Positions 8,683 to 34,922 are shown, counted from the stretch's first letter. The stretch is 64,000 bases of DNA from Bacteroidia bacterium (GCA_037968415.1 JBBKVM010000002.1:6030-70029), one strand, 5' to 3'. Translations and numbers: made by a program. The notes: generated by a model not told the origin, from the letters alone.

Positions 8683-8692
8683 AACAAAAAAC

Positions 8693-11320
8693 ATGAAGAA
8701 CCTGCTTAAAAAACTATTGCTATACACAATATTGTCACTGATCACTTCGGCAAGCTGTTTTGCATTTAATGTCTATTTAAATGGTGTGAATGAGTATTGC
8801 AACGGATCCAATGGGATGGTATGGGTGAATTCGATCAACGGTGGCACAGCACCCTATTCTTATTCATGGTCCACGGGTTCCAACAACGATACCATTTTCA
8901 ACTTGTCGGCAGGGAGTTATTCCGTGGTGGTAACTGATTTTACTGGGGCTACTGCAACTGCCATTTCTTCAATTAGTAACTATAATTTAAACATTCAGGG
9001 AGCCTGGTCATATGTGAGTTGTTCAGCGCCAGGGATGCATCCTTGTCCATTCGCTACGCCTTGCAACGGAACCATTGGGTGGTGCGCAAGCATTCTTGGC
9101 GGAACACCTCCCTACTCTATTTTCAGCAACATCGGAACCACAGGAACCTCGCCCAATGGAGATTTATATGTTACCGGCTTGTGTAACATGGACAACTTAA
9201 ATGTTTCCATCACGGACTCTCAGGGATGTGGTGACGTAGTATCGATCACAGTGGTGGGGCCTGCATATCCAAATCCAAGTTTTATTCCATCGGGAGCTTG
9301 CAATGGCCAAAATAACGGATCCGTAGCTGTCAGCATTGCGTTTTCAGGATGGGGGGATCAGGGAAGTCTCCTGGATTCATTGCAAAACCCACTTTCTCAA
9401 TGGAGCAATTTTCCCGGTAACATTGCCACTTTTAATAATCTGTATGCAGGCAATTATTTTCTTGAGTATGGCTACTCAGGTGCTGTATCCCAACCTTGCT
9501 CCGGTTTGTTCCCTTTTGCGATTCCAGACTTGGGTCCAACCTGCAGCAATGTGAACGGCAGCGCGTTTGTAGATTTAAATACCAACTGCACAAACGATCC
9601 AAGCGACATTGCGTTGCCAAACACCATTGTGGAATTTACCCCAGGCCCTTACTATGCGATCACAAATGTAAATGGAACATTTTCCACCAACTTGCCGTGG
9701 GGCAATTACAGTGTGGTGCATTATCCCCCATCAGGATTATTGCAACTATGTCCTGCTAATCCTTTGCCGATTACCCTTTCAGCTTTAACACCCACAGTCA
9801 CCGTGAACTTTGCCGATACCAGCGCCATCCCGTTTGACATTTCAGCCAAAATCAGCCATGGTATCGCAAGGCCGGGATTCGATTTTCAGTATGGCCTCAG
9901 AGTCGATAACCACACTTATGTTGCCAGTGGGATGCTGACCGTAACGCTGAATTATGACCCGTTGCTTTCATTTGTATCTGCCAACCCTACACCATTAAGC
10001 ACTTCTCCCGGCCAGGTGGTCTGGCAGCTTAATTCTGTTTCAAATTTCCTTTGGACCAATGCCAGCGTTGTGTTTAATGTGCCTGCCAATCCAGCGCTCA
10101 TCGGAACGCAACTCAATGCAACGGTAACGGTAAATGCTACAACCACCGAACCAAACATCACCAACAATTCGGCTACCACCACCCATCTCATTTCAGGTTC
10201 ATTCGACCCCAATGAAAAACAAGTCACGCCATCGGGGAAATTCCTGCCCGCCACAAACGGGTTGTTCAATTACACCATCCAATTCCAGAACACCGGTAAC
10301 GATACCGCCTTCACCGTGCAGATCATCGACACGCTGAGCGCAAACCTGCAGGTGACCAGTTTTGTGCAGGGAGCCTCTTCGCACCCATACACCACGGAAG
10401 TCAGCGGCCAGGGCGTGCTGCGGTTTACTTTCAACAACATCTACCTACCCGACTCCACCACTGACGAAGCCCGCAGCCACGGCTTTGTTTCGTTTACGAT
10501 AAAACCAAAAGTCAATCTTCCGCATAACACCAACATCACGAATCGATCGAATATTATTTTTGATTTCAACCCACCCATCAATACCAACACTACGCAAAGT
10601 ACTGTTGACCTCACACTCGCCATCAATACCACTGCCGACACTGTCTGCCAAGGTCAATCGGTTACACTCACTATGATTCCCGAACTGACAAACACATCCT
10701 GGCGCTGGCGCGCGGGCACTTGCAACAGCACTATTATAGGCACCGGCAATTCCATCACACTCACTCCTACTGCCACCAATACCTATTATGTCCGAGATTC
10801 ATTGGGCACTATACCTGTTGGCAGCTGTTACCGAAAAACAATTGTGGTGTTGCCCACCCCCGCCACACCTTCCATCACACAAAATTTTGACACGTTGTTC
10901 TCCAGTGCCGCCAATGGAAACCAGTGGTACCTGAATGGCAATGTGATTGTTGGCGCCCTATCTCCCGCATTTATTCCTACGCAAAGTGGAAGTTATTCCG
11001 TAGTGACCACGGCTACCAATGGATGCACTAGATCATCAGCAGCGTATATGTTTATCACCACTTCACAAGTGGGTGTATCAGCAAATCAACATACCATCTA
11101 CCCCAACCCCACTACAGGCATGATTACCACAGAATTGGGCGACACTAATTTTGAAGACGCTGCTATTGTAATCACCAATGTGTTGGGAGAAAAAATAATC
11201 GAAGTAATTTCTCACACCTCCGAATTCTCTTTTGATCTCACAGATTATCCGCAGGGAATATATTTTATCAATTTATCAGTTAACGGTTTAACCACCTCTC
11301 GCAAAATAGTTCGGATGTAA
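8693..11320 (+). CDS. T9SS-sorted adhesin-like protein (SprB repeats + DUF11 + CTD), paralog 3 of 3
   Basis: Same architecture. The CTD is ...IYPNPTTGMITTELGD....AIVITNVLGEKI....LTDYPQGIYFINL. The ORF caller's TTG start at 8675 would overlap paralog 2 by 8 nt; the ATG at 8693 (MKNLLKKLL signal peptide) is preferred. Confidence 0.75.
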   Translation: MKNLLKKLLLYTILSLITSASCFAFNVYLNGVNEYCNGSNGMVWVNSINGGTAPYSYSWSTGSNNDTIFNLSAGSYSVVVTDFTGATATAISSISNYNLNIQGAWSYVSCSAPGMHPCPFATPCNGTIGWCASILGGTPPYSIFSNIGTTGTSPNGDLYVTGLCNMDNLNVSITDSQGCGDVVSITVVGPAYPNPSFIPSGACNGQNNGSVAVSIAFSGWGDQGSLLDSLQNPLSQWSNFPGNIATFNNLYAGNYFLEYGYSGAVSQPCSGLFPFAIPDLGPTCSNVNGSAFVDLNTNCTNDPSDIALPNTIVEFTPGPYYAITNVNGTFSTNLPWGNYSVVHYPPSGLLQLCPANPLPITLSALTPTVTVNFADTSAIPFDISAKISHGIARPGFDFQYGLRVDNHTYVASGMLTVTLNYDPLLSFVSANPTPLSTSPGQVVWQLNSVSNFLWTNASVVFNVPANPALIGTQLNATVTVNATTTEPNITNNSATTTHLISGSFDPNEKQVTPSGKFLPATNGLFNYTIQFQNTGNDTAFTVQIIDTLSANLQVTSFVQGASSHPYTTEVSGQGVLRFTFNNIYLPDSTTDEARSHGFVSFTIKPKVNLPHNTNITNRSNIIFDFNPPINTNTTQSTVDLTLAINTTADTVCQGQSVTLTMIPELTNTSWRWRAGTCNSTIIGTGNSITLTPTATNTYYVRDSLGTIPVGSCYRKTIVVLPTPATPSITQNFDTLFSSAANGNQWYLNGNVIVGALSPAFIPTQSGSYSVVTTATNGCTRSSAAYMFITTSQVGVSANQHTIYPNPTTGMITTELGDTNFEDAAIVITNVLGEKIIEVISHTSEFSFDLTDYPQGIYFINLSVNGLTTSRKIVRM

Positions 11321-12264: not shown

Positions 12265-12738
12265 TCAGCAAAATCGTGGGTCGGCCAGGGCGGGCAATCG
12301 CGCCATGCGGCTTACCTCCAACATGGGGAAGTCAAACTCCTCCACCACCTTGCCTTCCAGCAGGTACACGCCATATCCGGTAAAGGGATTTTTTTTGAGT
12401 GAGGGCGGGAAGTGTGTGGTGTCATAAAATTTTCCTTCGCGGTCGAAGAAAGTGCCAAAGATCATAAGTTCTCTGCGCACGGTGGTCACGTATTTGCGTG
12501 TCACCAGGTTGCCGAGCATGCGCACGGTGCGGCCGGTGTGGGCGGGCAGTTCGCGCGCCAGCACGCCTCCGCGGTAGGTCGTCTTGAGCATATCGAAATG
12601 CGTGCACGACACCGGAAAACCCAGCAGTTCCATTTCGTCATAGGCATCCTCGAGCGGATGGTGTACCAGCGCGGGCAGCTCAAACGCGCGCGGGGCGGTG
12701 CGAAAAAGCTCTTCCTGTATTTTGAGTTCGTATTTCAT
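12265..12738 (-). pseudogene. dnaE2: C-terminal fragment of a DnaE2/ImuC-like error-prone DNA polymerase (OB-fold region); gene interrupted upstream
   Basis: GC-rich ORF encoding ...MELLGFPVSCTHFDML (the ELLGF.SGHP-like post-HhH motif) followed by the DnaE OB-fold signature VRMLGNLVTRKYVTTVRRELMIFGTFFDREGKFYDTT. The open frame runs only about 12 codons upstream of the Met, to a stop at 12775, into AT-rich DNA. Its N-terminal partner is the ORF at 19276-21741. Confidence 0.6.
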
Positions 12739-12851
12739 GGGCGTTTTGTGACGAAAATATTGACGAAAATGGTTTTAAAAATATAGCAATAAAAAGGTGA
12801 ACACCGTTCACTTTTTACTTAACTTACATGTTGCATCAAAAAGAAGCATCA

Positions 12852-14435
12852 ATGAAATTAAAAACACATCTGCTGCAATTTATTTTTGTTCTGTGGTGCA
12901 TGCCTTCTGCATTTGCGCAGCAACTCAGCTCGCCACAAAGCATAGAAACAAATAATGTGAAAGCGCTGGTTCATTCAAACGGACCCCTGTTTTGGGATCT
13001 GACAACCAACGCAGGGTATGAAGTTCCGAAAGGTTCGGGCTTATCCACGATTTTTGTCAGCGGTTTATGGATTGGTGGATTTGACGCAAACCAAAACATG
13101 TATTTTGCGGCCGAACGACATCGCACACCAACAAAAATGGATTTTTTCTCAGGCCCGCTGGATACTGTGAATGGCAACGCCCCGAACCCACTCAATTGGT
13201 CGAAAACATGGAGAATAAAACAGAGTGAAGTGGACTACCACAAAAACTTCTGGAACCAACCGGGATATACCATGCCCGTATCAGTGGCTCAATGGCCCGG
13301 ACCGGGTTTCGGAACGCTGCCATCAAGCCTGGCCCCGTTTGTCGATATCAACAACAACCAGATATACGAGCCCATGCTGGGCGACTATCCGGCTATAAAA
13401 GGTGATGAGTGTCTCTACTTTATCATGAACGACAACTATGCTGCCCACACCGAATCCAACTGCCCGGCCATGAAAATTGAAGTGCGGGGAATGGTATACG
13501 CCTTTGACGCTCCTGCCAACCCGACAATGAATCACACCGTTTTCCTTCACTATGACATCATCAATCGTTCAAACATAATATATGATTCGGTACTGGTTGG
13601 GATGTTCGCAGATTTTGATGTGGGCAATTACGCTGATGATTTCATAGGAACGGATGTGACCAACAAAATGATTTACGCTTACAACGGTGATTCAATTGAC
13701 GAAGGGCCTGATGGCTATGGCCTCAATCCTCCGGCCCAGGGATTGATATTTCTGAATCACCCGTTAAGACGCTCAATGGGGTATACACAAGATTTTAGCA
13801 CATGGCCAGATCCTACGGTAATTTGCGGTGATTTTTACAGGACTTTTAATTGTATATGGAAGGATGGCACACCGCTTACTTTTGGGGGCAACGGATACAG
13901 TCCCGGTGGCGGAGGTATCCCCACCAATTATATTTTCCCGGGCAACACCGATCCTGCTTTTCAGGGACAGAACTGGGTGGATGTTTCGCCCCCGGCTGAC
14001 CGAAGAATCATTGGTTCTGTTGGCCCTTTTCAATTTGCACCCGGTGATCACATTTATATGGAGACGGCCTATGTGTATGCCCGCGCCACAAGTGGCGGCC
14101 CGTGGGCCAGCGTGATGCAATTACAGCAAGCAGCCGCACAAGTCAACACCTGGTATAGCGGAATTTCAAATGCACCTTCATACCCGGCAAGCCGTGATAA
14201 GGTAAATATTTACCCCAACCCCATGTCAGAGCGTGCCACCGTATATTTTGACAACGCCCAGCGCACGGCCTACACACTTTCTGTGGTCGACATTACCGGC
14301 AGAGAAGTATTTACGCAACACAACATCACCGAGGGGCAAGTAGAAATTCAACGCGGCAACCTGCCTGCCGGAATGTATGTGCTCGCGCTTCAATCCAACA
14401 CGCAACTGCTCACCAAAAAATTTGTGATTCGATAG
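12852..14435 (+). CDS. secreted protein of unknown function with T9SS C-terminal sorting domain
   Basis: Signal peptide MKLKTHLLQFIFVLWCMPSAFAQQ. The C-terminal Por_Secre_tail-like domain is VNIYPNPMSERATVYFDN....LSVVDITGREVF....LPAGMYVLAL. Composition is AT-richer than the flanking dnaE2 fragments. Confidence 0.7.
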   Translation: MKLKTHLLQFIFVLWCMPSAFAQQLSSPQSIETNNVKALVHSNGPLFWDLTTNAGYEVPKGSGLSTIFVSGLWIGGFDANQNMYFAAERHRTPTKMDFFSGPLDTVNGNAPNPLNWSKTWRIKQSEVDYHKNFWNQPGYTMPVSVAQWPGPGFGTLPSSLAPFVDINNNQIYEPMLGDYPAIKGDECLYFIMNDNYAAHTESNCPAMKIEVRGMVYAFDAPANPTMNHTVFLHYDIINRSNIIYDSVLVGMFADFDVGNYADDFIGTDVTNKMIYAYNGDSIDEGPDGYGLNPPAQGLIFLNHPLRRSMGYTQDFSTWPDPTVICGDFYRTFNCIWKDGTPLTFGGNGYSPGGGGIPTNYIFPGNTDPAFQGQNWVDVSPPADRRIIGSVGPFQFAPGDHIYMETAYVYARATSGGPWASVMQLQQAAAQVNTWYSGISNAPSYPASRDKVNIYPNPMSERATVYFDNAQRTAYTLSVVDITGREVFTQHNITEGQVEIQRGNLPAGMYVLALQSNTQLLTKKFVIR

Positions 14436-14662
14436 CGCGCTAATTATTCTGTTTTTTCCCCTTCGATAATTTGCCTTTACCGTTGGTAATAAAATTACCA
14501 TGCATTGAAAACCCCTTCGGATTTTAATTTCGTATTTCACAGCGTATCATGACAATTCTTCAGGCAGGTTAGCCTAAACAATCTTAAAAAAACCTGAATG
14601 CTTGTAAACAGTCTTAATAAGCATTAAGAACTAAGAAGTTGCATGAAACAAAGCAGAAAAAA

Positions 14663-14699
14663 TAAAAGGGGCTGACAATTGCCAGCCCTTTTGTTTTTA
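14663..14699. terminator. bidirectional intrinsic terminator between convergent genes
   Basis: aaaaGGGGCTGacaattgcCAGCCCtttt gttttt: a GC stem of about 7-10 bp with an A-run 5' and a T-run 3', so it is usable on both strands. It lies between the stop of the 12852-14435 (+) gene and the stop of the 14700-15500 (-) gene. Confidence 0.5.
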
Positions 14700-15500
14700 T
14701 TATTGTCCTGTCTTATGCGTCAGGTCTGTAATAGCCACGATATATTGTTTGGGATTCGTGGAATACTTTATCATATAGTTGAGAGGATAATAACCTGTGT
14801 GCTTCACAGCCTGTGGCTGACGAATCGGCAATACCTCATCTGGTTGCGACAGCAGGTGAGCCAATGTGATCATGGGCTCATAAAAAATAAACTCGCCATC
14901 GTAACTTCCATAAATAAATGTACGGGAGAAAGGCTGGCCGTTAAATTCGGGCGCCAACAAATCTATCCAATGCGCTCCCATCTGTGGTACCCCTCCGGGT
15001 GTGTGCAGATATGCAGGCGGCCGATACATGGCCGCAGGCGCATTTGAAAACTGTGTTGAGTCAAATGGACCAATTGACAAACGGGTCGCCAAAGGCATGG
15101 TGTAAAAGTGAAAATCAAAGTGCGGGGAATCGTACACTCCGGGAGGCTCATGCCCTTGTGGATTCCAGTCAAAAAGCACGTGCGTGAAATTGATTGACAC
15201 ATGCGTTGGCAATGCCAGCGAATATTGTCTTGGATCGGCAGGCAGGTTCTGCAATGCCTTATCCGACATACTTAAACCCACTGACAACGGGATGCCATTC
15301 TGATCCTGCGATACCCAGGCGCGCACTACGCCATTTCCAAGCGGTTGGGCGGGTCCGTAAAATGTCATCACTTCTTTGCGCTGGTCGACCATCGTCTGGT
15401 CACTTGTTGATGAGTCTATCATAGGCTCTTCTTTCTGGCACGATGCAAGCATCATCGTGGCTGCCACAAGCAGGCAGCTTAACTTCATGGTGGTTTTCAT
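14700..15500 (-). CDS. hypothetical lipoprotein
   Basis: 266 aa with a lipoprotein signal (MKTTMKLSCLLVAATMMLASCQKEE). No recognisable catalytic motif. Confidence 0.5.
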   Translation of the reverse strand: MKTTMKLSCLLVAATMMLASCQKEEPMIDSSTSDQTMVDQRKEVMTFYGPAQPLGNGVVRAWVSQDQNGIPLSVGLSMSDKALQNLPADPRQYSLALPTHVSINFTHVLFDWNPQGHEPPGVYDSPHFDFHFYTMPLATRLSIGPFDSTQFSNAPAAMYRPPAYLHTPGGVPQMGAHWIDLLAPEFNGQPFSRTFIYGSYDGEFIFYEPMITLAHLLSQPDEVLPIRQPQAVKHTGYYPLNYMIKYSTNPKQYIVAITDLTHKTGQ

Positions 15501-15769
15501 GGTGAGATTTTTAAGTTAAATAAACATGACAATTGGACAATTTATCATTTCATTTTGGGATTGTCAATACCCTATCATGTAATTTATTTCGCCACCGCCA
15601 TGTGGGTTTCATTAATATTGCAACATAACTTTCCTCACATAGTTTATACTCGTGGCCTTGTCCTCAAAGTGCAACAGTTACACACCTTTGTGAGTCTGAG
15701 AACCATCCATGACAGTTTCTTGAACAAATGAAGCATTGAATTACTCTTGCGCTAACACATTGCGAATGT

Positions 15770-17029
15770 TTAATCACAAACCACCAGTTTCCCTGAAAAG
15801 TGCGAATTATCTCTCCCGGTAATTCTGTAAAAATATATTCCGGCAATCAAATTATCACTCAATCGAATTGTATTATCATCAGTGGCTACTTCATATACCA
15901 ACACACCCAAAGTATTATAGAACTGAATAGTATATGTATTGCTGGAGCTAGATGGTAAGAACAACTGATTTCCTGTTTTTGCAGGATTTGGGTAAATTTT
16001 TACAAATGATTCATGACTTTGATTCATAATTGAAGTATTCCAATCACAACCTACCCCCCCACCTATCAAATAATTCCCGTTATCCCAAAAACATGCTGTC
16101 TGAGAACCATAATTAATACATGCATATTGAGGTATTTCCATGTAAAAAGAACCAATAAAAGCACCGATTCCCTCAATCCAGTAAAATCCAGCTTCGCAGG
16201 TAAAGCCCCACACATTCATCGGGTTCAATGGTGTCATTTGATGCAAAAGTCTCATTCCATTACCAGTATAAAACTGAGCAAAGTGTTCAAGTTTAAAAGA
16301 GAAAACCGAATCGCTGACGTAGTTAAATAATCTTACATTAAATGTATCGCCAGGCTGTAGATTATAATCAAACAAAAGGAGTTCTGTAGTATCAAAGCCA
16401 GAGGTCAAAGGATATTTGACATACCATTTGCGCGATTCTTCCCGAAGGAAGCAATGAAGTGTATCGGAAGGGGCATTATAATTCAAATCAATCCCGGAAT
16501 ATATTTTGTTGAACACTTTATTATCAATAACAGTGTCGCCTCGCATCTTATATTGTGTTGTTCTGGAAAATGGAATCAGGCTATTGGATAGCCGAATACT
16601 CCATTGAACGCTGTCTTCCGGCATTTTAATATATGGGAAATATATGTATCTGATTGTACCCAATACAACCGGTGCAACACTGCATGGACGCATATTAGTT
16701 AGGGCCCTGAAAGTACCGGTGTATGGAGCTTTCCAATACAATCCAAATGCTCCACTAGGGTGAGTACCGTCATAAGCATAGCTAAAAGTTCCGGTCGAAT
16801 CGAGTATTGTAATTTCACCCGGATTTACTATTGTTTGGCTTGTCCAAAAGTAACGGTCTCCAGAATCGGCATGAAAGGTATAATATCGGTTACCGGTTAC
16901 TAAAATAGTTTGATCAGTATTTGAAAAATTTAATGTCCCGCCAAAAAATCCACCGGTACATTGCGCCAGCGAACATGCGGGAATAAGATTGGCAATGAGC
17001 AGCATTATAATTGTGGCTTTCGTTTTCAT
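15770..17029 (-). CDS. secreted protein with T9SS C-terminal sorting domain (paralog of 17046-17966)
   Basis: The true start is probably MKTKATIIMLLIANLIPACSLAQ at 17029; the ORF caller's 17086 start reads through the neighbour's 3' end. The CTD ...TYTIQFYNTLGVLVYEVATDDNTIRLSDNLIAGIYFYRITGRDNSHFSGKLVV is near-identical to that of the upstream gene. Confidence 0.7.
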   Translation of the reverse strand: MKTKATIIMLLIANLIPACSLAQCTGGFFGGTLNFSNTDQTILVTGNRYYTFHADSGDRYFWTSQTIVNPGEITILDSTGTFSYAYDGTHPSGAFGLYWKAPYTGTFRALTNMRPCSVAPVVLGTIRYIYFPYIKMPEDSVQWSIRLSNSLIPFSRTTQYKMRGDTVIDNKVFNKIYSGIDLNYNAPSDTLHCFLREESRKWYVKYPLTSGFDTTELLLFDYNLQPGDTFNVRLFNYVSDSVFSFKLEHFAQFYTGNGMRLLHQMTPLNPMNVWGFTCEAGFYWIEGIGAFIGSFYMEIPQYACINYGSQTACFWDNGNYLIGGGVGCDWNTSIMNQSHESFVKIYPNPAKTGNQLFLPSSSSNTYTIQFYNTLGVLVYEVATDDNTIRLSDNLIAGIYFYRITGRDNSHFSGKLVVCD

Positions 17030-17045
17030 TTCAAATATTTTGTGT

Positions 17046-17966
17046 TTAATCACAAACCACCAGTTTCCCTGAAAAGTGCGAATCATCTATTCCGGTAATT
17101 CTGTAAAAATATATTCCGGAAATCAAATTGTCATTCAATCTGATTGTGTTATCATCAGTGGCTACTTCATACACCAACACACCCATAACATTATAGAACT
17201 GAATAGTATAAGTTTTGCTGGCGCGTAACGTCAAGTACAACTGACCTCCCCTTTTTACAGGATTGGGATGTACCAATACTTTATTATCATGTTCAATATT
17301 TTCGACAGTTGTAAAAATCGGACAGGCTGTGTTGGTGTCAGGATATAATGTGATTCCATCAATCGAAAAACACACCAACTGACTTGAACTTTCAAAAGGA
17401 TCTAACATTTCTATTAATCCCTTGGTGCTTCCGATGCCCTCTATTAAAAAAGCATAATTCATCGGAAACCCACAGCCATTCATCAGATTAATTTTTTTTC
17501 GATAACTGCTCCCAATCTGTATAGAATCAATTGAAGTTATTATTTTATATGGACATTGTCCGAGAAGTGGAGGGGGTATTGTGTCACCAATCTGGAGCGA
17601 AAAATCATATAAAACAGAAAGCGTGCCCAAAGATCCATCTAAAAAGTAAACTTTTTTCTGTGATGTATCTTGTCGAATTGCACCCATGTAAAACCAACTT
17701 TCGTAGATTGGAAATCCTGAATTATTAAACCATCCGGATCTAATCAACTTTGTATATGGAACACCGTTTATTAATGTATCATTTCCCAGTTCATATTGAT
17801 ACGCAGACAAGTAATTAGTTCCAAATGGATTATCCCATCGTACCAGATCAACCCTCCACACCGCACCTGAATCAGGGAAAGGATGATACACGTTGGTTTG
17901 CGCATGACTTATCCCGCCATAGTGTAACAGCAATGTGATGATAGCGGATATGAAAAAAAATTTCAT
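17046..17966 (-). CDS. secreted protein with T9SS C-terminal sorting domain
   Basis: Signal peptide MKFFFISAIITLLLHYGGISHAQ. The CTD ...KTYTIQFYNVMGVLVYEVATDDNTIRLNDNLISGIYFYRITGIDDSHFSGKLVV shares roughly 150 nt of near-identical DNA with the 3' end of the 15770-17029 gene. Confidence 0.7.
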   Translation of the reverse strand: MKFFFISAIITLLLHYGGISHAQTNVYHPFPDSGAVWRVDLVRWDNPFGTNYLSAYQYELGNDTLINGVPYTKLIRSGWFNNSGFPIYESWFYMGAIRQDTSQKKVYFLDGSLGTLSVLYDFSLQIGDTIPPPLLGQCPYKIITSIDSIQIGSSYRKKINLMNGCGFPMNYAFLIEGIGSTKGLIEMLDPFESSSQLVCFSIDGITLYPDTNTACPIFTTVENIEHDNKVLVHPNPVKRGGQLYLTLRASKTYTIQFYNVMGVLVYEVATDDNTIRLNDNLISGIYFYRITGIDDSHFSGKLVVCD

Positions 17967-17977
17967 GAATTGAATTA

Positions 17978-18949
17978 TTAAAAATGCTTAACAAACTTTT
18001 TAGCATATCTGTTGGTCGGTGTTTCAATAACAATGTTGTAAATACCATCAGGCAAACTCTGTATATATAAATCAATACCGCTTATTATCTCTTTGTCTAA
18101 TACTAATTTTGCGTTTATATCATAAATGTAAATGTGAAAACTAAAATCTTCTCTCGCTTTAATTGATAAGATACTCGAGGCAGGATTAGGAAAAACTGAA
18201 ACTTTTTCTTCAACTTTTATTTCCTCTACGCCTATTAGCGTGCCTATTGCTATAAACAAATCTTCTAATAGCCAACCTCCTCTGTTATTCTGAATACTAT
18301 CGCTAGCAAAAAGAAATTTTATCATAATACTGTCAGGTGTTATAATATTGGGATTAAAAATCCAATACCAGTATTTTTCATGGTGTATCCAATTACTGAG
18401 AAATGAAACATCTTTTGAAATTCCTGAATAACCGGGCGCATTTAAGCTTTGAACAAAACCGTTTGGATCATAAATTAAATTTCCTTCATCATATATTGGA
18501 TCATGTACTGCATTTATCCAGTTTTGTCCTCCATCATAAGAAATTTCAATAGTGCCCCCATCTGTTAATGTATCTGTATCATACTTACTATGAAAGCTTA
18601 AGACAGTATAATCACATTGACATTTAAAAATACTATTTACGTCATCATTGCCCATAAATTGAAAGGGCACGGTGAAAATAAAGGAAGAATAAGCGTTGGT
18701 TGGGTAGGGTAGAAAAGTATCTGTGACTATTCCTTTTTGCTGAGATATTGCTGCTCCGTTAAAATTAATAATACTTTTATTTGGTGTTCCAATTTGCCAG
18801 ATATTATTGGTTGAAGTATCGATTTTAATATAGTCTTCATAGAAGCTGCCCATATTATCCTCAAAAGAGATTAGCAGCCCTGTATTACTAATTTGTGCAT
18901 GGGTACAATTAAAAATCAAAATCAGGAATACTGTTAGTGATGTTTTCAT
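17978..18949 (-). CDS. secreted protein with T9SS C-terminal sorting domain
   Basis: Start chosen at MKTSLTVFLILIFNCTHAQ (18949). The CTD is VFPNPASSILSIKAREDFSFHIYIYDINAKLVL....LPDGIYNIVI. Confidence 0.65.
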   Translation of the reverse strand: MKTSLTVFLILIFNCTHAQISNTGLLISFEDNMGSFYEDYIKIDTSTNNIWQIGTPNKSIINFNGAAISQQKGIVTDTFLPYPTNAYSSFIFTVPFQFMGNDDVNSIFKCQCDYTVLSFHSKYDTDTLTDGGTIEISYDGGQNWINAVHDPIYDEGNLIYDPNGFVQSLNAPGYSGISKDVSFLSNWIHHEKYWYWIFNPNIITPDSIMIKFLFASDSIQNNRGGWLLEDLFIAIGTLIGVEEIKVEEKVSVFPNPASSILSIKAREDFSFHIYIYDINAKLVLDKEIISGIDLYIQSLPDGIYNIVIETPTNRYAKKFVKHF

Positions 18950-19134
18950 AATAATTGATTTTGCAAATTTAACATCACGTGCCAAATGTTAGTTGAAGTG
19001 GTATTTATGGTAATATAATTTTCATAGAAATTGCCCATGCTATTTTTAAAGCTGATCATCAATGATGCATTTCCGAGTTGTCCTAAAGCAACTTGGATTG
19101 AAAGAACAAAAACTAGTGAGATAATTAATTTCAT
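18946..19134 (-). pseudogene. 5' fragment duplicating the N-terminus of the 17978-18949 T9SS protein (probable gene remnant)
   Basis: The 62-aa ORF MKLIISLVFVLSIQVALGQLGNASLMISFKNSMGNFYENYITINTTSTNIW parallels ...AQISNTGLLISFEDNMGSFYEDYIKIDTSTNNIW of the adjacent gene and then terminates. Confidence 0.35.
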
Positions 19135-19275
19135 AATCCTATGATTTAATTACTTTAAAATCAACGGTTATTCCATTTTCATTTTACAAGGTACAGTTGA
19201 TGAATGAATAATCAAGTGGTTTTATTGCAGTCTCAAAAATTCAAAGATTTTTTTTGGTCGTATTGCCTTTCCGTT

Positions 19276-21741
19276 TCACTTCGCCACTGCCATGTGGGCC
19301 TCCCACAGCAGGGCTTGCTTGCTGTGGCCGGTAAATCGCAGTGCCCCCGCGCGTATGAGTATGATGAGCTGGTCGCGCGTGATGCCGGTGCGCGTTACAA
19401 AATCATCGAGCGACAGGTAGGGCCCTCCGCGCTCGCGCTCGTGCGGTATGGCCGCGGCCGCCCCGCTCTCCAGGTCTTTGATGTGGATGAAGCCCAGCCA
19501 GATGGTGGTGCCGCTGATGGTGGTGAGGTGCTCGCTATGGTTTACACACGGGTTCTCTATGTGCGCGCCCGCCAGCCGCGCCTCGTTTACATACACCCAT
19601 GTGGAATAAAAGCCGCCAAAGTTGTTGATCACCGCCACCATAAACTCCAGCGGATAGTGCGCCTTGAGGTACAGACTCTGATAGCTCTCCACGGCAAAAC
19701 TGGCCGAGTGCGCCTTGGAGAATGAGTACCCCGAAAAACTTTCTATCTGCCGCCACACCTCCTGCGCCAGCGTGTCGGAGTAGCCGCGGTCGCGGCAGTT
19801 GTCGAAAAACTTTTTGACGATGCGGTCGAGCTCGGCCCGCCCGCGAAACTTGCCGCTCATGGCCCTGCGCAGCACATCGGCCTCGCTCAGGTCGAGCCCC
19901 GCAAAATGGTGCGCCACCTTGATCACATCTTCCTGGTACACCATCACCCCGTAGGTTTCTTTGAGCAGCGCTTCCATCACCGGATGCAGGTATTCAAAAT
20001 CGTTGGGGTGATGAAAGCGGTGTATGTAGGCGCGCATCATACCGCTTTTGGCCACGCCCGGGCGGATAATGGAGCTGGCAGCCACCAGCGAAATATAGTT
20101 GTCGCAGCGCAGCTTCTTGAGCAGCCCGCGCATGGCAGGGCTCTCCACATAAAAACAACCGATGGTGTCGCCTTTGCGCAGTTGCTCGGCCACCTGCGGA
20201 TCTTGTTTGAAGCGGGGCACATCGTGTATGTCGATGCGGGTGCCGCGGTTGCGCTGTATGATGTTTACACTGTCTTGTATGTGTCCGATGCCGCGCTGGC
20301 TCAGTATGTCGAGTTTCTCGAAGCCTATCTCTTCGGCCACATACATATCAAACTGTGTGGTGGCAAAGCCTTTGGGCGGCATGTCGAGGGCGGTGTAGCT
20401 GAAGATGGGCTCTTCGCTCACCAGTATGCCGCCCGCGTGGATGCTGCGCAGGTTGGGATAGTCGGCTATGCGCTTGCCGAGCGAAAAAATATTGCGCGCT
20501 ATGTCGTCACATCTCTCTTCGGGAGGCGGGTTCTCCACCAGCGCGTCTATCTCTGTTTTGGGCAGGCCGTACACCTTGCCCAGCTCGCGGATGATGCTCT
20601 TGCCTTTGAAGGTGCTGTAGGTAGCCATAAGGGCGGTGTGGCTGCTGCCGTAGCGTTTGAACACGTAGTCGATAACCTGGTCGCGGTCGCGCCACGAGTA
20701 GTCGATGTCGAAGTCGGGCGGGCTGGTGCGCGCGGGGTTGATAAAGCGTTCGAAGTAGAGGTCGAGTTCGATGGGATCTACATCGGTGATGCGCAGGCAG
20801 TAGGCCACAATGCTGTTGGCTCCGCTGCCACGACCCACGTGGTAGAAGCCGCGCGACATGCTGTAGCGTATCACGTCCCAGGTGATGAGGAAGTACGCGA
20901 GAAAGCCAAGCCGGGTGATCACTTCCAGCTCGTGGGCGATGCGTTTCTGCGCCTCTTTGTTGCGCAGGCCGTAGCGGTATTCCATGCCTTCGTGCGCGAG
21001 TTTTTCGAGCAGCAGGCGGTCGTCATAGGCGTTGCCGGTAAATGTCTTTCTGTTTTTCACCACGCGGTAGTCGAAGTCGAAAGAGCAGTCGGCCGCGAGT
21101 TGCGAGGCGTTGGCAATCAGTTCGGGGTATGCCGCGCAGCGGGCGGCCAGCGCGGCCGGTGTGTGCACAACCTCGCCCGCATGGCATGTGGCCGTAGGCG
21201 GCAGCTTGCTCAGCACCACATTGTGATCGATGGCGCGCAGCAGGCGGTGCACCTGCATGTCGGTCGGCTGGGCGAGCGTAACGGGCTGCATGAGCACCAT
21301 GCGCTGTCGCTGGCGGGCGGTGGTGGTGGCCAGCCGCGAGAGTGCCGCCAGCGGCACGCCTATGTATTCGTTGTCGCGCAGCGGATGGGTGGTGCCCAGC
21401 GGATACACCACGTGCACATGGTCGAAAACAGGCGCGCGCGCGGGCAACGCCTGTGCGGCTATATGATAGTGCGACACAAAAGCGTTGATCTCGGCAAAGC
21501 CGCGGTTGTTGCGCGCCAGGCACGTGTACAGCAATGTGTCGCCATGCCTTATCTCCATGCCCGCCACGGGGGTGATGCCCGCGGTGCGGCAGGCTTTTAC
21601 AAAATCGAACGTGCCCGACACATTGTTGATGTCGGTGAGGGCAAGCACCTGCGCGCCCGCGGCAGAGGCCTGCTGCACGAGCGCCTCTACAGGCAGGGTG
21701 CCGTAGCGCAGGCTGTAATAGGAATGGCAGTTGAGGTACAT
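19276..21741 (-). pseudogene. dnaE2: N-terminal 821-aa fragment of DnaE2/ImuC-like error-prone DNA polymerase (PHP domain through HhH); truncated by insertion
   Basis: MYLNCHSYYSLRYGTLPVEALV (PHP start), then the pol III alpha palm/fingers core, ending in the HhH-like segment ...GGPYLSLDDFVTRTGITRDQLIILIRAGALRFTGHSKQALLWEAHMAVAK and a stop. Composition is visibly GC-rich and changes abruptly to AT-rich at 19275. The continuation is at 12265-12738. Confidence 0.65.
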
Positions 21742-21754
21742 CGTTAAAAAAAGT

Positions 21755-21766
21755 AATGACGATTAT
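21755..21766. promoter_or_regulatory. candidate SOS operator motif AATGACGATTAT within the palindrome TAATGA-N11-TCATTA (dnaE2 / DnaJ-protein divergent promoter region)
   Basis: The 12-mer matches 11 of 12 positions with the reverse complement of 34024-34035 in the lexA-like/dinB intergenic region. A 22-nt extended alignment has about 16 of 22 identities. Confidence 0.3.
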
Positions 21767-21869
21767 TTCATCATTAACAGGACGAATAAGTTAGCAACAT
21801 AAATCATAAAAACCGCAAAAAAGTTGCGGCCAATATGTACTTTTAAGACACACAGGCAGTTGTAAAACC

Positions 21870-22676
21870 ATGGCCGATCGGCATTATCACATATTGGGCA
21901 TACCACCGGGCGCAGGCAAAACAGAAATACGCAAGGCGTATCGCAGAAAAGTGTTGCTGCTGCACCCCGACCGCAACCCGTCACCGGCAGCGCGCGAAGA
22001 GTTTTTGCGTGTGCGCGAGGCCTATGATGCGTTGATGGAAAGAGGCGCGCAGCCCGTGCGCCCAGCGCCAAGGCCCGATGCCAAACCCTATCCGAAATAT
22101 TCGCGCCAGGCCAACGACCCGTTTTACAAAGCACGGTGGCAGGAGTACCGCAGACAACAACAGGCCAGACGTGCAGAAGAAGAAATAGAAAACACAAGCC
22201 TCTACTCTTTTCTGGTGTACACGGCCCGCGCGGTGGCCATTGCAGGTACGGCCTTGTGCCTGGCACTGCTGGCCGATTTTGTGTTGCCTGCACATACACA
22301 AGAGCAAACCATACTCAACCGAAATATTGAGATAGTGCAACAGCGAAGCATCGCAATTGAAAACAGAAGAATACATACCGAACGCTATCAAATACCGGTG
22401 CAGCGTGAAATGTTTTTCCTAATAGCCGAAGGCGACAAAATTACGGTGCAGGCAAGCCCGTTGTTTGAAATTCCGAGGCGGATGACGTACACAGGAACAG
22501 AGTTCAAGCCCGCTTATGGAATCTTCTCAAACTTCGCCATGTTTGCCATTGCATTATTTGCATTGTCGCTTGCCGGCTTGTGGTCATGGAAGCGCAAAGG
22601 CGATTTGCTGATCAATAGTTTTTTCAATCTGGCGCTGCTGATTATCGTGCTGTTTATCATGAATGCTTCGCATTGA
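21870..22676 (+). CDS. DnaJ (J-domain) membrane protein
   Basis: N-terminal J domain (YHILGIPPGAGKTEIRKAYRRKVLLLHPDRNPS...EEFLRVREAYDAL with HPD), a basic linker, then three to four predicted TM helices. The 5' half is GC-rich. Confidence 0.6.
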   Translation: MADRHYHILGIPPGAGKTEIRKAYRRKVLLLHPDRNPSPAAREEFLRVREAYDALMERGAQPVRPAPRPDAKPYPKYSRQANDPFYKARWQEYRRQQQARRAEEEIENTSLYSFLVYTARAVAIAGTALCLALLADFVLPAHTQEQTILNRNIEIVQQRSIAIENRRIHTERYQIPVQREMFFLIAEGDKITVQASPLFEIPRRMTYTGTEFKPAYGIFSNFAMFAIALFALSLAGLWSWKRKGDLLINSFFNLALLIIVLFIMNASH

Positions 22677-22736
22677 AGTACGAAACAAATCCATTTCGAA
22701 AATTAAGCTACTTTAGACTAACCAAAAACAACGACT

Positions 22737-25400: not shown

Positions 25401-25413
25401 AAGTTAATGATTT

Positions 25414-25452: not shown

Positions 25453-25480
25453 ATTAACACTAAAACAACAAAGCAATAGA

Positions 25481-32842: not shown

Positions 32843-33997
32843 TCACCGTATGGTCACCGCGCGCATTACGGCTTCTTCGCCAAAGCGTTTTTTGATGCGG
32901 TCCATGGCCTGGTAGAGGCCGGCCAGGCGCTGGGTGTCTTCAAAAAGATTGATCTGCATGGAGCCTTGCACAAGGTGCGAGAGCCTTACGCCCACCAGCC
33001 GTATGAGCATGCGCCTGCTGTACAACTTGTCGAATAGTTCGTGGGCATGGGCCATCAGCACGTGGTCGGCCGCGGTGTAGGGTATGCGCAGCTGGCGTGT
33101 TTCGGTGTCGAAGTTGGCGTAGCGTATTTTCACCGTGATGCAAGAGGTGAGCCTGTTGCGGCTGCGCAGTTTGAAGGCCAGCTCTTCGGCCATGCCGGTA
33201 AGCAGCGCGCGAATGCCGGTTACATCTATGGTGTCTTTGTCGAAGGTGGTCTCGGTGCTTATGGACTTGCGTTCGCTGTACGCCACCACGGGGCTGTTGT
33301 CTATGCCGTTGGCTTTTTTCCATATCACCGTGCCTGCCTTGCCCAGCACGCGGGCAAGCATCTCGGGCGGCGTGCGCTGTAGCGTGTGTATGGTGGCTAT
33401 GCCCATGCCGCGTAGCAGCCGGAAGGTGGCCTCGCCTATCATGGGTATGCGCGCGATGGAAAGGGGCGAGAGAAAAGTCTTTTCGGTGCCGTGATGTATC
33501 TGTATGCGGCCATCGGGCTTGGCTTCGTTGGTCCCTATTTTAGACACGGTCTTATTGGCCGACAGGCCAAAAGAAATGGGCAGCCCTGTCTCGCGCAGTA
33601 TGCCCGCCTTCAGCTCATCGGTGTACTGCAGGCATCCGTGAAAACGATCCATGCCGGTAAGGTCAATATAAAACTCATCGATAGATGCCTTCTCATACAA
33701 CGGTACACTTTCGGCTATCACCTCGGTAACCAGCCCCGAATAGCGCGAGTAAGCCTCCATGTCGCCACGTATCACCAGTGCATCGGGGCACAACTGGCGC
33801 GCCATGCGCATGGGCATGGCCGAGCGCACGCCATACACGCGCGCCTCGTAGCTGCACGAGGCCACCACGCCCCTGTCGCTGAGGCCACCAATAATAAGCG
33901 GCCGCCCGGCCAGCGCGCTATTACGCAGCCGCTCCACGCTCACAAAAAACGTGTCCAGATCCATGTGTACGATATGCCGCGGCTCACTGCTATGCAT
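32843..33997 (-). CDS. dinB: DNA polymerase IV (Y-family, catalytically competent DinB-like)
   Basis: HMDLDTFFVSVE and SIDEFYIDLT carry the D-D-E catalytic residues in the positions of E. coli DinB (VDMDCFF / SLDEAYLDVT). The size is 384 aa. The gene is GC-rich and divergently arranged from the LexA-like repressor. Confidence 0.8.
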   Translation of the reverse strand: MHSSEPRHIVHMDLDTFFVSVERLRNSALAGRPLIIGGLSDRGVVASCSYEARVYGVRSAMPMRMARQLCPDALVIRGDMEAYSRYSGLVTEVIAESVPLYEKASIDEFYIDLTGMDRFHGCLQYTDELKAGILRETGLPISFGLSANKTVSKIGTNEAKPDGRIQIHHGTEKTFLSPLSIARIPMIGEATFRLLRGMGIATIHTLQRTPPEMLARVLGKAGTVIWKKANGIDNSPVVAYSERKSISTETTFDKDTIDVTGIRALLTGMAEELAFKLRSRNRLTSCITVKIRYANFDTETRQLRIPYTAADHVLMAHAHELFDKLYSRRMLIRLVGVRLSHLVQGSMQINLFEDTQRLAGLYQAMDRIKKRFGEEAVMRAVTIR

Positions 33998-34118: not shown

Positions 34119-34922
34119 ATGCTGTATTTTGGAAAAAACACCCAACTGCTGCGCAAGCGCAAAAACAGATCGCAGGAAGAAATGGCCACCGCGCTGGGCA
34201 TTACGCGCACCTCACTCAGCGGATACGAACTGGGCAACAACCAGCCACCCTACGAATTGCTCATCGCCATTTCCGATTATTTTAAGGTACCCGTTGACGT
34301 GCTGCTGCGCACCAGCCTGGCAAAAATGAGCGAGTTCAAACTGAGCGAACTGGAGCGCGGCTATGACCACGCACACATCACCGGATCGCAACTGCGTGTG
34401 CTGGCCACCACCACCGACAGCAACAACACCGAAAACACCGAACTGGTACCCGTAAAAGCCAAGGCCGGCTACACCCGCGGATATGCCGACCCCGATTACA
34501 TAAAAGTACTGCCCGCATTCAGCCTGCCCTTTCTCTCGCGCGAACGCAAGTACCGCACCTTCCCCATCAGTGGCGACTCTATGCCGCCCGTAGCGGACGG
34601 ATCGTGGGTGACAGGTGAATACCTACAGAACTGGAACCACATCAAAAACGGATTGCCATACATCATTGTCACCGCTGACGAAGGCATCGTATTTAAAATG
34701 GTGCACAACCATATTAAAGACAAAGGCTCACTGCTGCTGTGCTCTACCAACCCACTGTACAAGCCTTACGAAATAGCCGTAAGCGATGTGCTCGAAGTAT
34801 GGAAATTCGTACACTTCATAAGTTCCGAACTGCCCGAAAGCAACCAACCACGACAGGACCTCACCACCGCAGTCATCAACCTGCAGAAAGAAGTAGCCCA
34901 GCTAAAAATGAAACTGGACTAA
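34119..34922 (+). CDS. LexA-like SOS repressor (HTH_XRE DNA-binding domain + S24 self-cleaving peptidase domain)
   Basis: N-terminal XRE HTH (EEMATALGITRTSLSGYELGNNQP), an A-G cleavage-site candidate (VKAKAGYT), a catalytic Ser motif GDSM (ISGDSMPPV) and a downstream Lys (VFKMV). The ATG at 34119 is preceded by AAGGAGG; the ORF caller's upstream start at 34059 is unlikely. GC-rich. Confidence 0.75.
   Translation: MLYFGKNTQLLRKRKNRSQEEMATALGITRTSLSGYELGNNQPPYELLIAISDYFKVPVDVLLRTSLAKMSEFKLSELERGYDHAHITGSQLRVLATTTDSNNTENTELVPVKAKAGYTRGYADPDYIKVLPAFSLPFLSRERKYRTFPISGDSMPPVADGSWVTGEYLQNWNHIKNGLPYIIVTADEGIVFKMVHNHIKDKGSLLLCSTNPLYKPYEIAVSDVLEVWKFVHFISSELPESNQPRQDLTTAVINLQKEVAQLKMKLD

What the first reader, a model, noticed from the sequence alone, without database searches (positions are those of the whole stretch)
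12265..21741. DnaE2/ImuC-like error-prone polymerase gene split cleanly by a ~6.5 kb AT-rich island of T9SS cargo genes
The minus-strand ORF at 19276-21741 encodes the PHP domain, polymerase core and HhH of a DnaE-family polymerase and stops right after ...HSKQALLWEAHMAVAK. The minus-strand ORF at 12265-12738 encodes what should come next: the ELLGF...SGHP-like segment and the OB-fold (VRMLGNLVTRKYV...ELMIFGTFFDREGKFYD). Together they make about 980 aa, which is DnaE2-sized with no tau-binding tail. Only a handful of residues seem to be missing at the junction. Both fragments are conspicuously GC-rich. The intervening 12739-19275 segment is AT-rich with sharp composition breaks exactly at the fragment ends. 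It encodes four proteins with Por-type T9SS C-terminal sorting domains plus one lipoprotein, and carries no integrase or transposase. This points to a recent insertion that inactivated the mutasome polymerase. It is an unusual route by which secreted-protein cargo could knock out inducible mutagenesis. No target-site duplication was visible at the junctions.
Basis: partly seen in the sequence, partly recalled or inferred. Interest (0 to 1): 0.75.

Follow-up and report, generated by a model that had tools for sequence, protein, structure and literature searches.

The report
Two-piece error-prone polymerase gene with cargo between
A damage-inducible DNA polymerase gene (dnaE2) of a Bacteroidota bacterium sits as two intact, undecayed reading frames cut exactly between two protein domains and separated by 6.5 kb of secreted-protein genes, and the evidence suggests a tolerated, probably older gene split that later collected inserts, not a fresh knock-out.

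Summary
ORFs 19276-21741(-) (821 aa) and 12265-12738(-) (157 aa) are consecutive parts of one ~978-aa DnaE2-type polymerase. In about 155 related loci the two parts are contiguous and in frame, and nothing is missing at the break.

The break lies about 9 residues before the motif that aligns with the internal clamp-binding motif of E. coli Pol III alpha. The N ORF therefore resembles alpha(1-917). The C ORF is the clamp motif plus an OB fold.

The interpretation (one recent inactivating insertion, no target duplication) is only partly supported:
- Both ORFs keep 296 of 298 family-invariant positions.
- The closest relative (L084) also has two ORFs at this linker, overlapping by ATGA, and the window keeps a remnant of that overlap after the N stop.
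- The island has three segments bounded by internal copies of the N-ORF end and the C-ORF start. Four of five differences in the N-end copy are silent.
- The partner Y-family polymerase and LexA-like repressor lie 11.1 kb upstream, intact.
- The four SOS genes have the highest GC3 in the window, so the polymerase is the compositional outlier.

No recombinase is present and no sister genome was available. Function of the split enzyme is inferred, not shown.

The parts
19276..21741 (-). dnaE2 N ORF, 821 aa: PHP, palm/thumb, fingers and HhH (beta-binding) domains. It ends ...LLWEAHMAVAK*. It is equivalent to about residues 1-917 of E. coli Pol III alpha.
   Evidence: It is 74% identical to the intact 980-aa P0113. 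It aligns collinearly with 5fku_A. Conserved columns are retained.
12265..12738 (-). dnaE2 C ORF, 157 aa: MKYELKIQEELF... (QEELF is at the position of the internal clamp-binding motif), followed by an OB fold at residues ~70-146.
   Evidence: It is 71% identical to the stand-alone C ORF P0002 of L084.
19276..19302 (-). A1: the last 9 codons of the N ORF (E A H M A V A K stop). One copy of the repeated N-end junction sequence.
   Evidence: (D8).
19252..19275 (-). Remnant of the ancestral ORF junction just after the N stop. AAGGCAATACGACCAAAA aligns to L084 AAGGCATCATGACCGAAA, so the ATGA stop/start overlap is now ACGA at 19258-19261.
   Evidence: The local alignment of the N end plus its flank to L084 beat all 300 shuffles; part of that score comes from the coding end. 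14/18 identity beyond the stop codon.
15611..19251 (-). Seg1: three Por-tail (T9SS type A CTD) genes (15770-17086, 17046-17966, 17978-18949) plus a truncated 5' paralog fragment at 18946-19134. GC 31-38%, GC3 0.25-0.34.
15584..15610 (-). A2: internal copy of the N-ORF end (GAA ACC CAC ATG GCG GTG GCG AAA TAA = E T H M A V A K stop). 22/27 identical to A1, and 4 of the 5 differences are silent. It coincides with the compositional boundary between Seg1 and Seg2.
   Evidence: D8; 18-mer found only at these two sites, 0.08 expected; E=0.004; 0/400 shuffles.
14541..15583 (-). Seg2: TTHB210-like lipoprotein gene at 14700-15500 (lipobox LASC) with its own terminator hairpin at 14665-14692. GC 49%.
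14508..14540 (-). B2: internal copy of the C-ORF start (GTG AAA TAC GAA ATT AAA ATC ...GGTTTT).
   Evidence: D10; 0.01 expected; score 31, 0/400 shuffles.
12739..14507 (+). Seg3: 535-aa Por-tail protein gene at 12828-14435 on the + strand, plus an 89-bp divergent intergenic region upstream of the C ORF. GC 48%.
12704..12738 (-). B3: the start of the C ORF (ATG AAA TAC GAA CTC AAA ATA CAG GAA GAG CTT TT). It is the partner of B2 and is homologous to the start of the L084 C ORF.
32843..33997 (-). Y-family polymerase (PolY2/DinB-like; IMS + IMS_C). It is the usual upstream partner of this dnaE2, here 11.1 kb away on the same strand.
   Evidence: (67% to the L001 homolog).
34119..34922 (+). LexA-like repressor (HTH_3 + Peptidase_S24), divergent from polY2.
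   Evidence: The family is described in PMC8565304.
21755..21775 (-). Palindrome AATGATG-N7-CGTCATT, 13 nt upstream of the dnaE2 N ORF. A candidate operator, with weak support.
   Evidence: A similar AATGACG-N7-CGTCATT lies upstream of the intact dnaE2 of L166.

Best explanation
This is the dnaE2 gene of the Bacteroidota LexA-like / PolY2 / DnaE2 SOS-mutagenesis module, present as two separate intact genes.

The cut lies in the flexible linker between the HhH (beta-binding) domain and the clamp-binding-type LF motif plus OB fold. The N gene encodes a catalytic core equivalent to E. coli alpha(1-917). The C gene encodes a small clamp-motif + OB subunit.

The most likely history has two stages:
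1. Fission came first. In an ancestor shared with L084, the gene became two ORFs whose stop and start overlapped (xTGA).
2. The ORF boundary then accumulated unrelated DNA in at least three steps: Seg1 (three T9SS cargo genes), Seg2 (a lipoprotein gene) and Seg3 (a T9SS cargo gene). Each step was a recombination that duplicated 27-34 nt of the junction. The N ORF therefore always kept its last codons and stop, and the C ORF kept its start.

Shown: collinearity, intactness, the junction copies, the L084 arrangement, and the dispersed but intact cassette.

Inferred: that the fission preceded the inserts, that both products are still made and work together (or that the N core works alone), and the recombination mechanism.
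For: 1. Contiguity is the rule in about 155 loci and in the best 120 protein hits, so the two ORFs are one gene's parts.
2. There is no decay. 296/298 columns that are >=97% conserved are retained, equal to the median of 78 intact homologs. The catalytic PDFDID and KLD motifs can be read in the sequence.
3. L084 is the closest relative (73% at the N end, 71% for C, closer than the intact P0113 at the N end). It has N and C as separate ORFs overlapping by ATGA at the same linker. The window's post-stop flank aligns through that overlap. The starts of the two C ORFs are homologous.
4. dN/dS between the two stand-alone C ORFs is 0.11, with dS saturated.
5. Internal junction copies A2 and B2 are non-random. 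A2 sits at the GC boundary between Seg1 and Seg2. Four of the five A1/A2 differences are silent, including stop to stop (reading). This suggests that both copies diverged while coding.
6. The break corresponds to alpha 1-917 | QxxLF + OB, and the C ORF has an OB fold.
7. polY2 and the LexA-like gene are intact 11.1 kb upstream on the canonical strand. All four SOS ORFs share the highest GC3 in the window.
8. The same linker carries insertions of up to about 45 aa in L026, L037, L043 and L069, so it tolerates change.
Against: - Every other relative examined has the OB domain covalently attached, so separate function has no precedent.
- The two ORFs are now 6.5 kb apart and cannot be co-translated. 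A promoter for the C ORF is only guessed.
- L084 is a single 2.1-kb metagenome contig, and its frame change could be an error or an independent lesion.
- The closest full-length relative, P0113, is intact.
- The junction copies are short (27 and 34 nt), and the silent-change argument rests on five differences (p about 0.007-0.03).
- An intact ORF with full conservation is equally expected if the insertion is simply very recent.
- No sister genome was available (best Zn-peptidase hit 70%).
- The source looks like a draft or MAG contig, and read support was not checked.
Confidence: 0.5

Rival explanations
1. Recent insertional inactivation. An intact dnaE2 was hit by incoming DNA at the linker. 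Both pieces are young pseudogene fragments that have not yet decayed, and inducible mutagenesis by this polymerase is lost.
For: - The contiguous gene is universal elsewhere.
- The closest full-length homolog is intact.
- The cassette is disorganised, with polY2 11.1 kb away.
- Full conservation is compatible with a very recent event.
- No promoter is proven for the C ORF.
Against: - The insert is composite and carries diverged junction copies, so it was not one event.
- A random hit landing in a ~10-aa linker of a 980-aa protein, with an immediate stop and a start codon in place, is improbable (about 1%).
- L084 shows a break at the same linker without an insert.
- The N-side flank retains the older ATGA-type junction.
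- Seg1 paralogs have diverged to about 40% identity, which does not suggest a brand-new block, although they could have arrived already diverged.
Confidence: 0.3
2. The N ORF alone is the functional polymerase, an alpha(1-917)-like core working with PolY2 and RecA. The C ORF is a dispensable relic that happens still to be open.
For: - The N ORF matches the boundaries of the crystallised, catalytically competent E. coli alpha truncation (chains of 910-918 residues).
- In mycobacteria the clamp contact of the mutasome is provided by ImuB, not by DnaE2 (from the literature: PMC6511836 cites the paper concerned, Warner et al. 2010).
Against: - The C ORF retains all but one of its conserved positions (F105Y only).
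- Its dN/dS against the L084 C ORF is 0.11.
- The OB domain is kept in every relative.
Confidence: 0.1
3. Assembly or binning chimera. GC-rich polymerase pieces from another organism were joined to AT-rich DNA.
For: There are sharp GC steps at the ORF ends. The source is a 74-kb contig with no close relatives in the databases.
Against: - It would need at least six alternating misjoins, because the GC-rich SOS pieces sit at three places.
- The pieces are in canonical order and orientation.
- The junction repeats are imperfect, with exact runs of only <=11 nt, which is too short to mislead an assembler.
- SOS genes are GC-richer than their flanks in all 96 related loci.
Confidence: 0.04
4. A programmed intervening element, as with skin/sigK or the nifD element, or a split-intein pair, that restores a full-length polymerase on demand.
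For: The break is clean and the two halves are in the same orientation.
Against: - No recombinase, integrase or transposase is found anywhere in the 64 kb.
- The only shared end sequence (TGAAA) would leave the TGA stop in place, and the two ORFs are in different frames relative to the L084-type junction.
- There is no intein. The lengths sum exactly to the contiguous protein.
- No ribozyme, intron or other Rfam family is detected.
Confidence: 0.02

Closest known systems
Bacteroidetes PolY2-DnaE2 system (Timinskas & Venclovas 2019, PMC6511836), under a non-canonical HTH_XRE-S24 LexA (Sanchez-Osuna et al. 2021, PMC8565304)
   Same: [quoted passage not shown] In 72 of 91 relatives polY2 ends less than 1.2 kb upstream of dnaE2.
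   Different: Here polY2 and dnaE2 are 11.1 kb apart. dnaE2 is in two ORFs 6.5 kb apart. The candidate operator is not either published motif (CTAA-N5-TTAG or GGA-N5-TCC).
E. coli Pol III alpha truncation 1-917 (PDB 2HNH/2HQA/4JOM) and its internal clamp-binding motif 920-QADMF-924
   Same: The N ORF ends about 9 residues before the aligned QxxLF motif. The C ORF starts with that motif and continues into the OB domain.
   Different: That truncation is a laboratory construct of the replicative DnaE1. Here the cut is natural, in a DnaE2-type enzyme, and there is no tau-binding domain.
Split dnaE of cyanobacteria (DnaE-n / DnaE-c with a split intein)
   Same: A C-family polymerase is encoded by two distant genes on one chromosome.
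   Different: No intein sequences are present and the cut position is different. The halves here cannot be spliced, so if they cooperate they must do so non-covalently.
Split imuA'-imuB / dnaE2 cassette of mycobacteria
   Same: The mutasome genes are dispersed in the genome yet functional, which shows that adjacency is not required.
   Different: In mycobacteria each gene is whole. Here the polymerase gene itself is divided.
Integrations that carry a replacement 3' end of the target gene (e14 or phage 21 in icd), and tandem accretion of integrase-less elements (CIMEs)
   Same: Short copies of the target gene's end flank the inserted DNA, and the gene product is unchanged. There are several segments in tandem at one site.
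   Different: No integrase, att arms or mobility genes are present. The repeats are only 27-34 nt, and two different repeat types (N end and C start) are involved.

Membership tests
C-family DNA polymerase, DnaE type | N-terminal PHP domain, polymerase core (PF07733), fingers (PF17657) and HhH beta-binding domain (PF14579), in this order | tested here: met
   E-values of 1.9e-15, 2.3e-66, 9.4e-42 and 1.3e-20 on the N ORF.
C-family DNA polymerase, DnaE type | Catalytic acidic residues and other family-invariant positions retained | tested here: met
   PDFDID and KLDIL are read in the translation. 296/298 columns that are >=97% conserved are retained.
C-family DNA polymerase, DnaE type | OB fold after the HhH domain, preceded by an internal clamp-binding motif | tested here: met
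   AF2 model and Foldseek. The alignment to E. coli alpha 727-1026 places QEELF on the motif. PF01336 itself gave no hit.
C-family DNA polymerase, DnaE type | All domains on a single polypeptide | tested here: not met
   There is a stop after K821. The C part starts 6.5 kb away.
DnaE2 / ImuC error-prone polymerase | About 1000 aa, ends after the OB fold, no tau-binding domain | tested here: met
   821+157=978 aa. Relatives are 973-1055 aa.
DnaE2 / ImuC error-prone polymerase | Scores above the curated cut-off of NCBIfam NF004225 (error-prone DNA polymerase) | tested here: not met
   503 bits against a cut-off of 939. The DnaE1 model NF004226 scores 554 against 1002. Only the N fragment was scored and the lineage is divergent, so this weakens the label but does not overturn it.
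DnaE2 / ImuC error-prone polymerase | Genomic association with a Y-family polymerase and an SOS repressor | tested here: met
   Adjacent in 72 of 91 relatives. In the window both are present 11.1 kb upstream on the same strand.
Canonical ImuA-ImuB-DnaE2 mutasome | ImuA (a RecA-like protein) and a catalytically dead ImuB with a C-terminal extension | tested here: not met
   No imuA is present. The Y-family protein passes a Pol IV model (NF002677, 274 > 256). The L001 homolog shows the DinB-like active-site motifs MDLD and SIDE. This fits the PolY2 variant.
DnaE2 / ImuC error-prone polymerase | Damage-induced mutagenesis depends on it | not testable with these tools
   This needs genetics.
Split-intein DnaE | Intein N and C halves at the break | tested here: not met
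   The ORF lengths sum to the contiguous protein and there is no extra sequence.
Integrative or transposable element / genomic island | Integrase, transposase or relaxase gene | tested here: not met
   None in the island or in the rest of the 64 kb. No similarity to plasmids or phages.
Integrative or transposable element / genomic island | Direct repeats of target sequence at the element boundaries | tested here: inconclusive
   Pairs A1/A2 and B2/B3 bound Seg1 and Seg3. At the outer ends there is only a weak imperfect repeat, G[C/A]AATACGA[C/A]C.
T9SS type A cargo | C-terminal Por_Secre_tail sorting domain (PF18962 / TIGR04183) | tested here: met
   Found in four island proteins.

The most novel reading that the evidence does not exclude
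In this lineage DnaE2 is a genuine two-subunit enzyme: an alpha(1-917)-like catalytic core plus a separately encoded clamp-motif/OB subunit. The stop/start junction between the two genes also acts as a recombination hot spot. There, integrase-less gene cassettes (T9SS cargo, a lipoprotein) are exchanged between strains by short-homology (27-34 nt) integration that always regenerates both gene ends.
Probability: 0.2. Interest if true: 0.7.

Novelty: new variant of a known kind. Interest (0 to 1): 0.5.

Why it matters
If the two halves work, this is a natural experiment. It would show that the clamp-binding/OB module of a C-family polymerase can act in trans. That bears on how mutasomes are recruited to the sliding clamp and to single-stranded DNA, and on how multidomain polymerases evolve by fission.

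It also warns annotators. Database 'C-terminal DnaE fragments' are mostly frameshift or contig-end artefacts, while this locus is a real split.

If the halves do not work, it is an ordinary early pseudogene. Either way, it illustrates how SOS-mutagenesis cassettes get dispersed in Bacteroidota genomes.

Tried and rejected
- **Short C-terminal proteins as evidence of a common native split.** The ~160-aa proteins are not that evidence. L001, L002 and L085 are error-laden long-read contigs with frameshifts at other positions. The word-index search favours short hits. The representative search returned mostly fragments.
- **Empty-site comparison.** There is no close genome. The best dnaE2 hit is 74% and the best Zn peptidase hit 70%. 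The source contig is not indexed. Cluster look-up gave no names.
- **Junction copies inside the 11.1-kb block between polY2 and dnaE2.** None were found. There is only a marginal 12-nt repeat, ATGATGAA[G/A]TAA, at its two ends (14/500 shuffles).
- **Operator hypothesis.** TGACG-N7-CGTCA with <=1 mismatch occurs once, against 1.3 expected. It is kept only as a lead.
- **Sequence match of the C ORF to solved structures.** None was found, so the fold was used instead.
- **Intein, excisable element, RNA element, tRNA target.** All negative.
- **Island genes next to dnaE2 in 165 other loci.** None.

Full report
**1. The observation**

The two minus-strand ORFs exist as described. The 821-aa ORF (19276-21741) carries PHP, DNA_pol3_alpha, finger and HHH_6 domains. 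The 157-aa ORF (12265-12738) has no Pfam or NCBIfam hit. An AlphaFold model built on 31 homologs (pLDDT 87.5) shows a five-stranded barrel at residues ~70-146. Foldseek places this barrel among the OB folds of Lys/Asp-tRNA synthetases, RPA, SSB and M. tuberculosis DnaE1 (7pu7_A).

I compared the ORFs with 80 GTDB loci and about 75 metagenome loci that hold the junction. In all of them the match to N residue 821 is followed, in the same frame and about 8 codons later, by the match to C residue ~8-11. Complete ORFs are 973-1055 aa, most often 978-980. The best 120 protein hits to the N ORF are 968-1074 aa. The two ORFs are therefore consecutive parts of one protein of 821+157=978 aa. The window's linker (K | MKYELKIQEE | LF) is 11 residues, against 9-10 in relatives, so nothing is missing.

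**2. Where the cut is**

I joined N(641-821) to C and searched it against PDB sequences. It aligns collinearly with E. coli Pol III alpha residues 727-1026 (5fku_A). The window's IQEELF aligns with GQLDLF, the engineered internal clamp-binding motif at 920-924. The N ORF thus corresponds to the alpha(1-917) fragment that was crystallised (chains of 910-918 residues in the same table). The C ORF is the clamp-type motif plus the OB fold. The LF dipeptide is conserved across the family. The same linker carries insertions of up to about 45 residues in L026, L037, L043 and L069, so it tolerates change.

**3. Which family**

- NCBIfam scores the N ORF below the cut-offs of both the DnaE1 model (554 against 1002) and the error-prone polymerase model (503 against 939).
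- The context settles the label. In 72 of 91 relatives with enough upstream DNA, a Y-family polymerase ends less than 1.2 kb upstream on the same strand. A divergent HTH_3 + S24 repressor is usually present as well.
- This is the 'Bacteroidetes PolY2-DnaE2' variant described by Timinskas and Venclovas (PMC6511836). It is controlled by the non-canonical LexA family of Sanchez-Osuna et al. (PMC8565304).
- The window does contain these partners. polY2 is at 32843-33997(-) (67% identical to the L001 homolog; IMS + IMS_C; passes a Pol IV model). The LexA-like gene is at 34119-34922(+). They lie 11.1 kb upstream of the dnaE2 N ORF, on the canonical strand.
- The block between them holds ordinary genes: DnaJ-TM, a TonB-dependent receptor, ARPP-1, DUF4139, YceI and a radical-SAM protein.
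- The cassette is therefore stretched at two places, and all four ORFs are intact.

**4. Composition**

The window averages 44% GC. The N and C ORFs are 60% and 57% GC (GC3 0.79 and 0.70). Together with polY2 (GC3 0.73) and the LexA-like gene (0.66), they are the four highest of 44 ORFs, whose median is 0.46.

The island is mixed. The Seg2 and Seg3 genes are 48-49% GC, like the genome. The Seg1 genes are 31-38%. dnaE2 is GC-richer than its flanks in all 96 related loci tested (mean +5.4 points, maximum +13.8). The 'sharp breaks' therefore mostly reflect a family trait, which is extreme here.

**5. Is the gene decaying?**

I aligned the window's N+C with 78 intact homologs. It keeps 296 of 298 columns that are >=97% conserved (the exceptions are G373A and F105Y of C). 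That equals the median of the intact genes themselves. The ORFs contain no frameshift or internal stop.

**6. The closest relatives**

The closest full-length protein, P0113 (74%), is an intact 980-aa gene that stands alone, with no polY2 nearby.

The closest relative of the C ORF is P0002 (71%), on the 2.1-kb contig L084. There the N part ends ...AHMQVANAKGAKAS*, and the C ORF (MTEIKTYHEGNLF...) starts in another frame with an ATGA stop/start overlap. Over the N-terminal side of the junction, the window is closer to L084 (73%) than to P0113 (64.5%).

The window's sequence just after its TGA stop (AAGGCAATACGACCAAAA) aligns to L084's AAGGCATCATGACCGAAA, which runs through the ATGA overlap. The local alignment containing it beat all 300 shuffles, although part of its score comes from the coding end; beyond the stop codon identity is 14/18. 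The first codons of the two C ORFs are homologous, M-(KY/T)-E-(L/I)-K.... dN/dS between the two stand-alone C ORFs is 0.11, with dS saturated.

The most economical reading is that the two-ORF state predates the island. The alternative is two independent breaks in the same ~10-residue linker. That would itself imply that only breaks at this point are tolerated.

**7. Anatomy of the island**

The island is not one piece.

- The last nine codons of the N ORF (A1, 19276-19302, EAHMAVAK*) recur at 15584-15610 (A2, ETHMAVAK*). The shared 18-mer occurs only at these two sites in 64 kb, against 0.08 expected. blastn-short gives E=0.004, and 0 of 400 shuffles reach the score.
- Of the five differences between A1 and A2, four are silent, including TGA to TAA. 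The probability is about 0.007-0.03, depending on the substitution model.
- The start of the C ORF (B3, 12704-12738) recurs at 14508-14540 (B2, which begins GTG). The 34-nt alignment is matched by 0 of 400 shuffles, and 0.01 sites are expected.

Read along the minus strand, the order is: N...A1 (+ old junction remnant) | Seg1 | A2 | Seg2 | B2 | Seg3 | B3...C.

- Seg1 holds three Por-tail genes plus a truncated paralog.
- Seg2 holds a lipoprotein gene with its own terminator.
- Seg3 holds a Por-tail gene on the other strand.
- A2 coincides with the GC step between Seg1 and Seg2.

I infer at least three acquisition steps, each duplicating 27-34 nt of the junction so that both polymerase ORFs kept their ends. 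The silent-change pattern suggests that at least one copy came from a diverged relative whose N ORF also ended AHMAVAK*. The mechanism is unresolved. It could be short-homology integration of circles, homology-facilitated illegitimate recombination, or template switching.

No integrase, transposase or relaxase is present anywhere in the window. No tRNA or Rfam element lies nearby. The island has no similarity to plasmids or phages. Por-tail genes are common in this genome: eight in the window, including three tandem ~880-aa paralogs at 3344-11320.

**8. Alternatives**

- **A very recent single knock-out.** It explains the intactness. It does not explain the composite insert, the junction copies, the L084 arrangement or the precision of the cut.
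- **An assembly chimera.** It would need at least six alternating misjoins, and the repeats are too short and imperfect to cause them.
- **Excision or intein-based restoration.** Excluded on sequence grounds: no recombinase, no repeat that would remove the stop, and no extra residues.
- **The N ORF alone being functional.** This cannot be excluded.

**9. Verdict**

I put about 0.5 on a tolerated, probably ancestral fission of dnaE2 that later accreted cargo. I put about 0.3 on recent inactivation. The remainder goes to the other readings. Function of the split enzyme is inferred, not shown.

The finding is a new variant of a known system. It rests on one contig plus one short metagenome contig.

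Noticed in passing
window 32843-34922, and 12265-12738 / 19276-21741: The four SOS-module ORFs (LexA-like, polY2, dnaE2-N, dnaE2-C) have the four highest GC3 values of 44 ORFs in the window (0.66-0.79, against a median of 0.46). dnaE2 is GC-richer than its flanks in all 96 related loci tested (mean +5.4 points). The cause is unknown. It could be horizontal origin or a gene-specific mutational or expression effect.
   Followed up: partly
window 21742-32842: An 11.1-kb block of ordinary genes separates polY2 from dnaE2-N, which are adjacent in 72 of 91 relatives. The block holds DnaJ-TM, a TonB-dependent receptor, ARPP-1, DUF4139/4140, YceI, a 537-aa unknown, a radical-SAM protein and a 192-aa unknown. 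Only a marginal 12-nt repeat, ATGATGAA[G/A]TAA, lies at its two ends.
   Followed up: partly
window 21755-21775; L166 about 4150-4200; window 34018-34038: The palindrome AATGATG-N7-CGTCATT lies 13 nt upstream of dnaE2-N. It resembles AATGACG-N7-CGTCATT upstream of the intact dnaE2 in L166, and partly resembles a site in the polY2/lexA-like intergenic region. It differs from the published Bacteroidetes LexA motifs and is statistically weak.
   Followed up: partly
window 12749-12771: A tandem direct repeat, TTTTCGTCA x2 (minus strand), lies in the 89-bp divergent region just upstream of the C ORF. Its core, CGTCA, resembles a half-site of the palindrome above.
   Followed up: no
window 3344-11320: There are three tandem paralogous ~880-aa T9SS cargo genes (SprB repeat, DUF11, DUF7619, Ig_7, Por_Secre_tail). 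Another Por-tail gene lies at 57464-59845. Secreted-protein genes are very dense in this genome.
   Followed up: no
window 15767-15991 and 17043-17267: The 438-aa and 306-aa Seg1 proteins are only 39% identical overall, but their last ~75 codons are 87% identical at the DNA level. This suggests gene conversion of the sorting domain.
   Followed up: partly
window 18946-19134: A 62-aa ORF is a truncated 5' paralog (40% identity) of the adjacent 323-aa Por-tail gene. It is a remnant of an older duplication or deletion at the edge of Seg1.
   Followed up: partly
L001 7508-10498; L002 7537-10480; L085 2826-5760: Long-read MAG contigs show dnaE2, and other genes such as a TonB receptor in L001, broken by frameshifts at varying positions. 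Many ~160-aa 'C-terminal DnaE' proteins in public databases are therefore artefacts, not native splits.
   Followed up: yes
L026, L037, L043, L069 (linker region of dnaE2): Low-complexity or repeat insertions of about 25-45 residues (for example GRADKRTS repeats in L069) sit in exactly the linker where the window gene is cut. This marks the linker as a hot spot for length change.
   Followed up: no
L166 9204-9863: An SRAP (SOS-response-associated peptidase) gene and a DinB_2-family gene flank the stand-alone intact dnaE2 of the closest full-length relative. There is no Y-family polymerase within 4.2 kb upstream or 10 kb downstream of that dnaE2.
   Followed up: no
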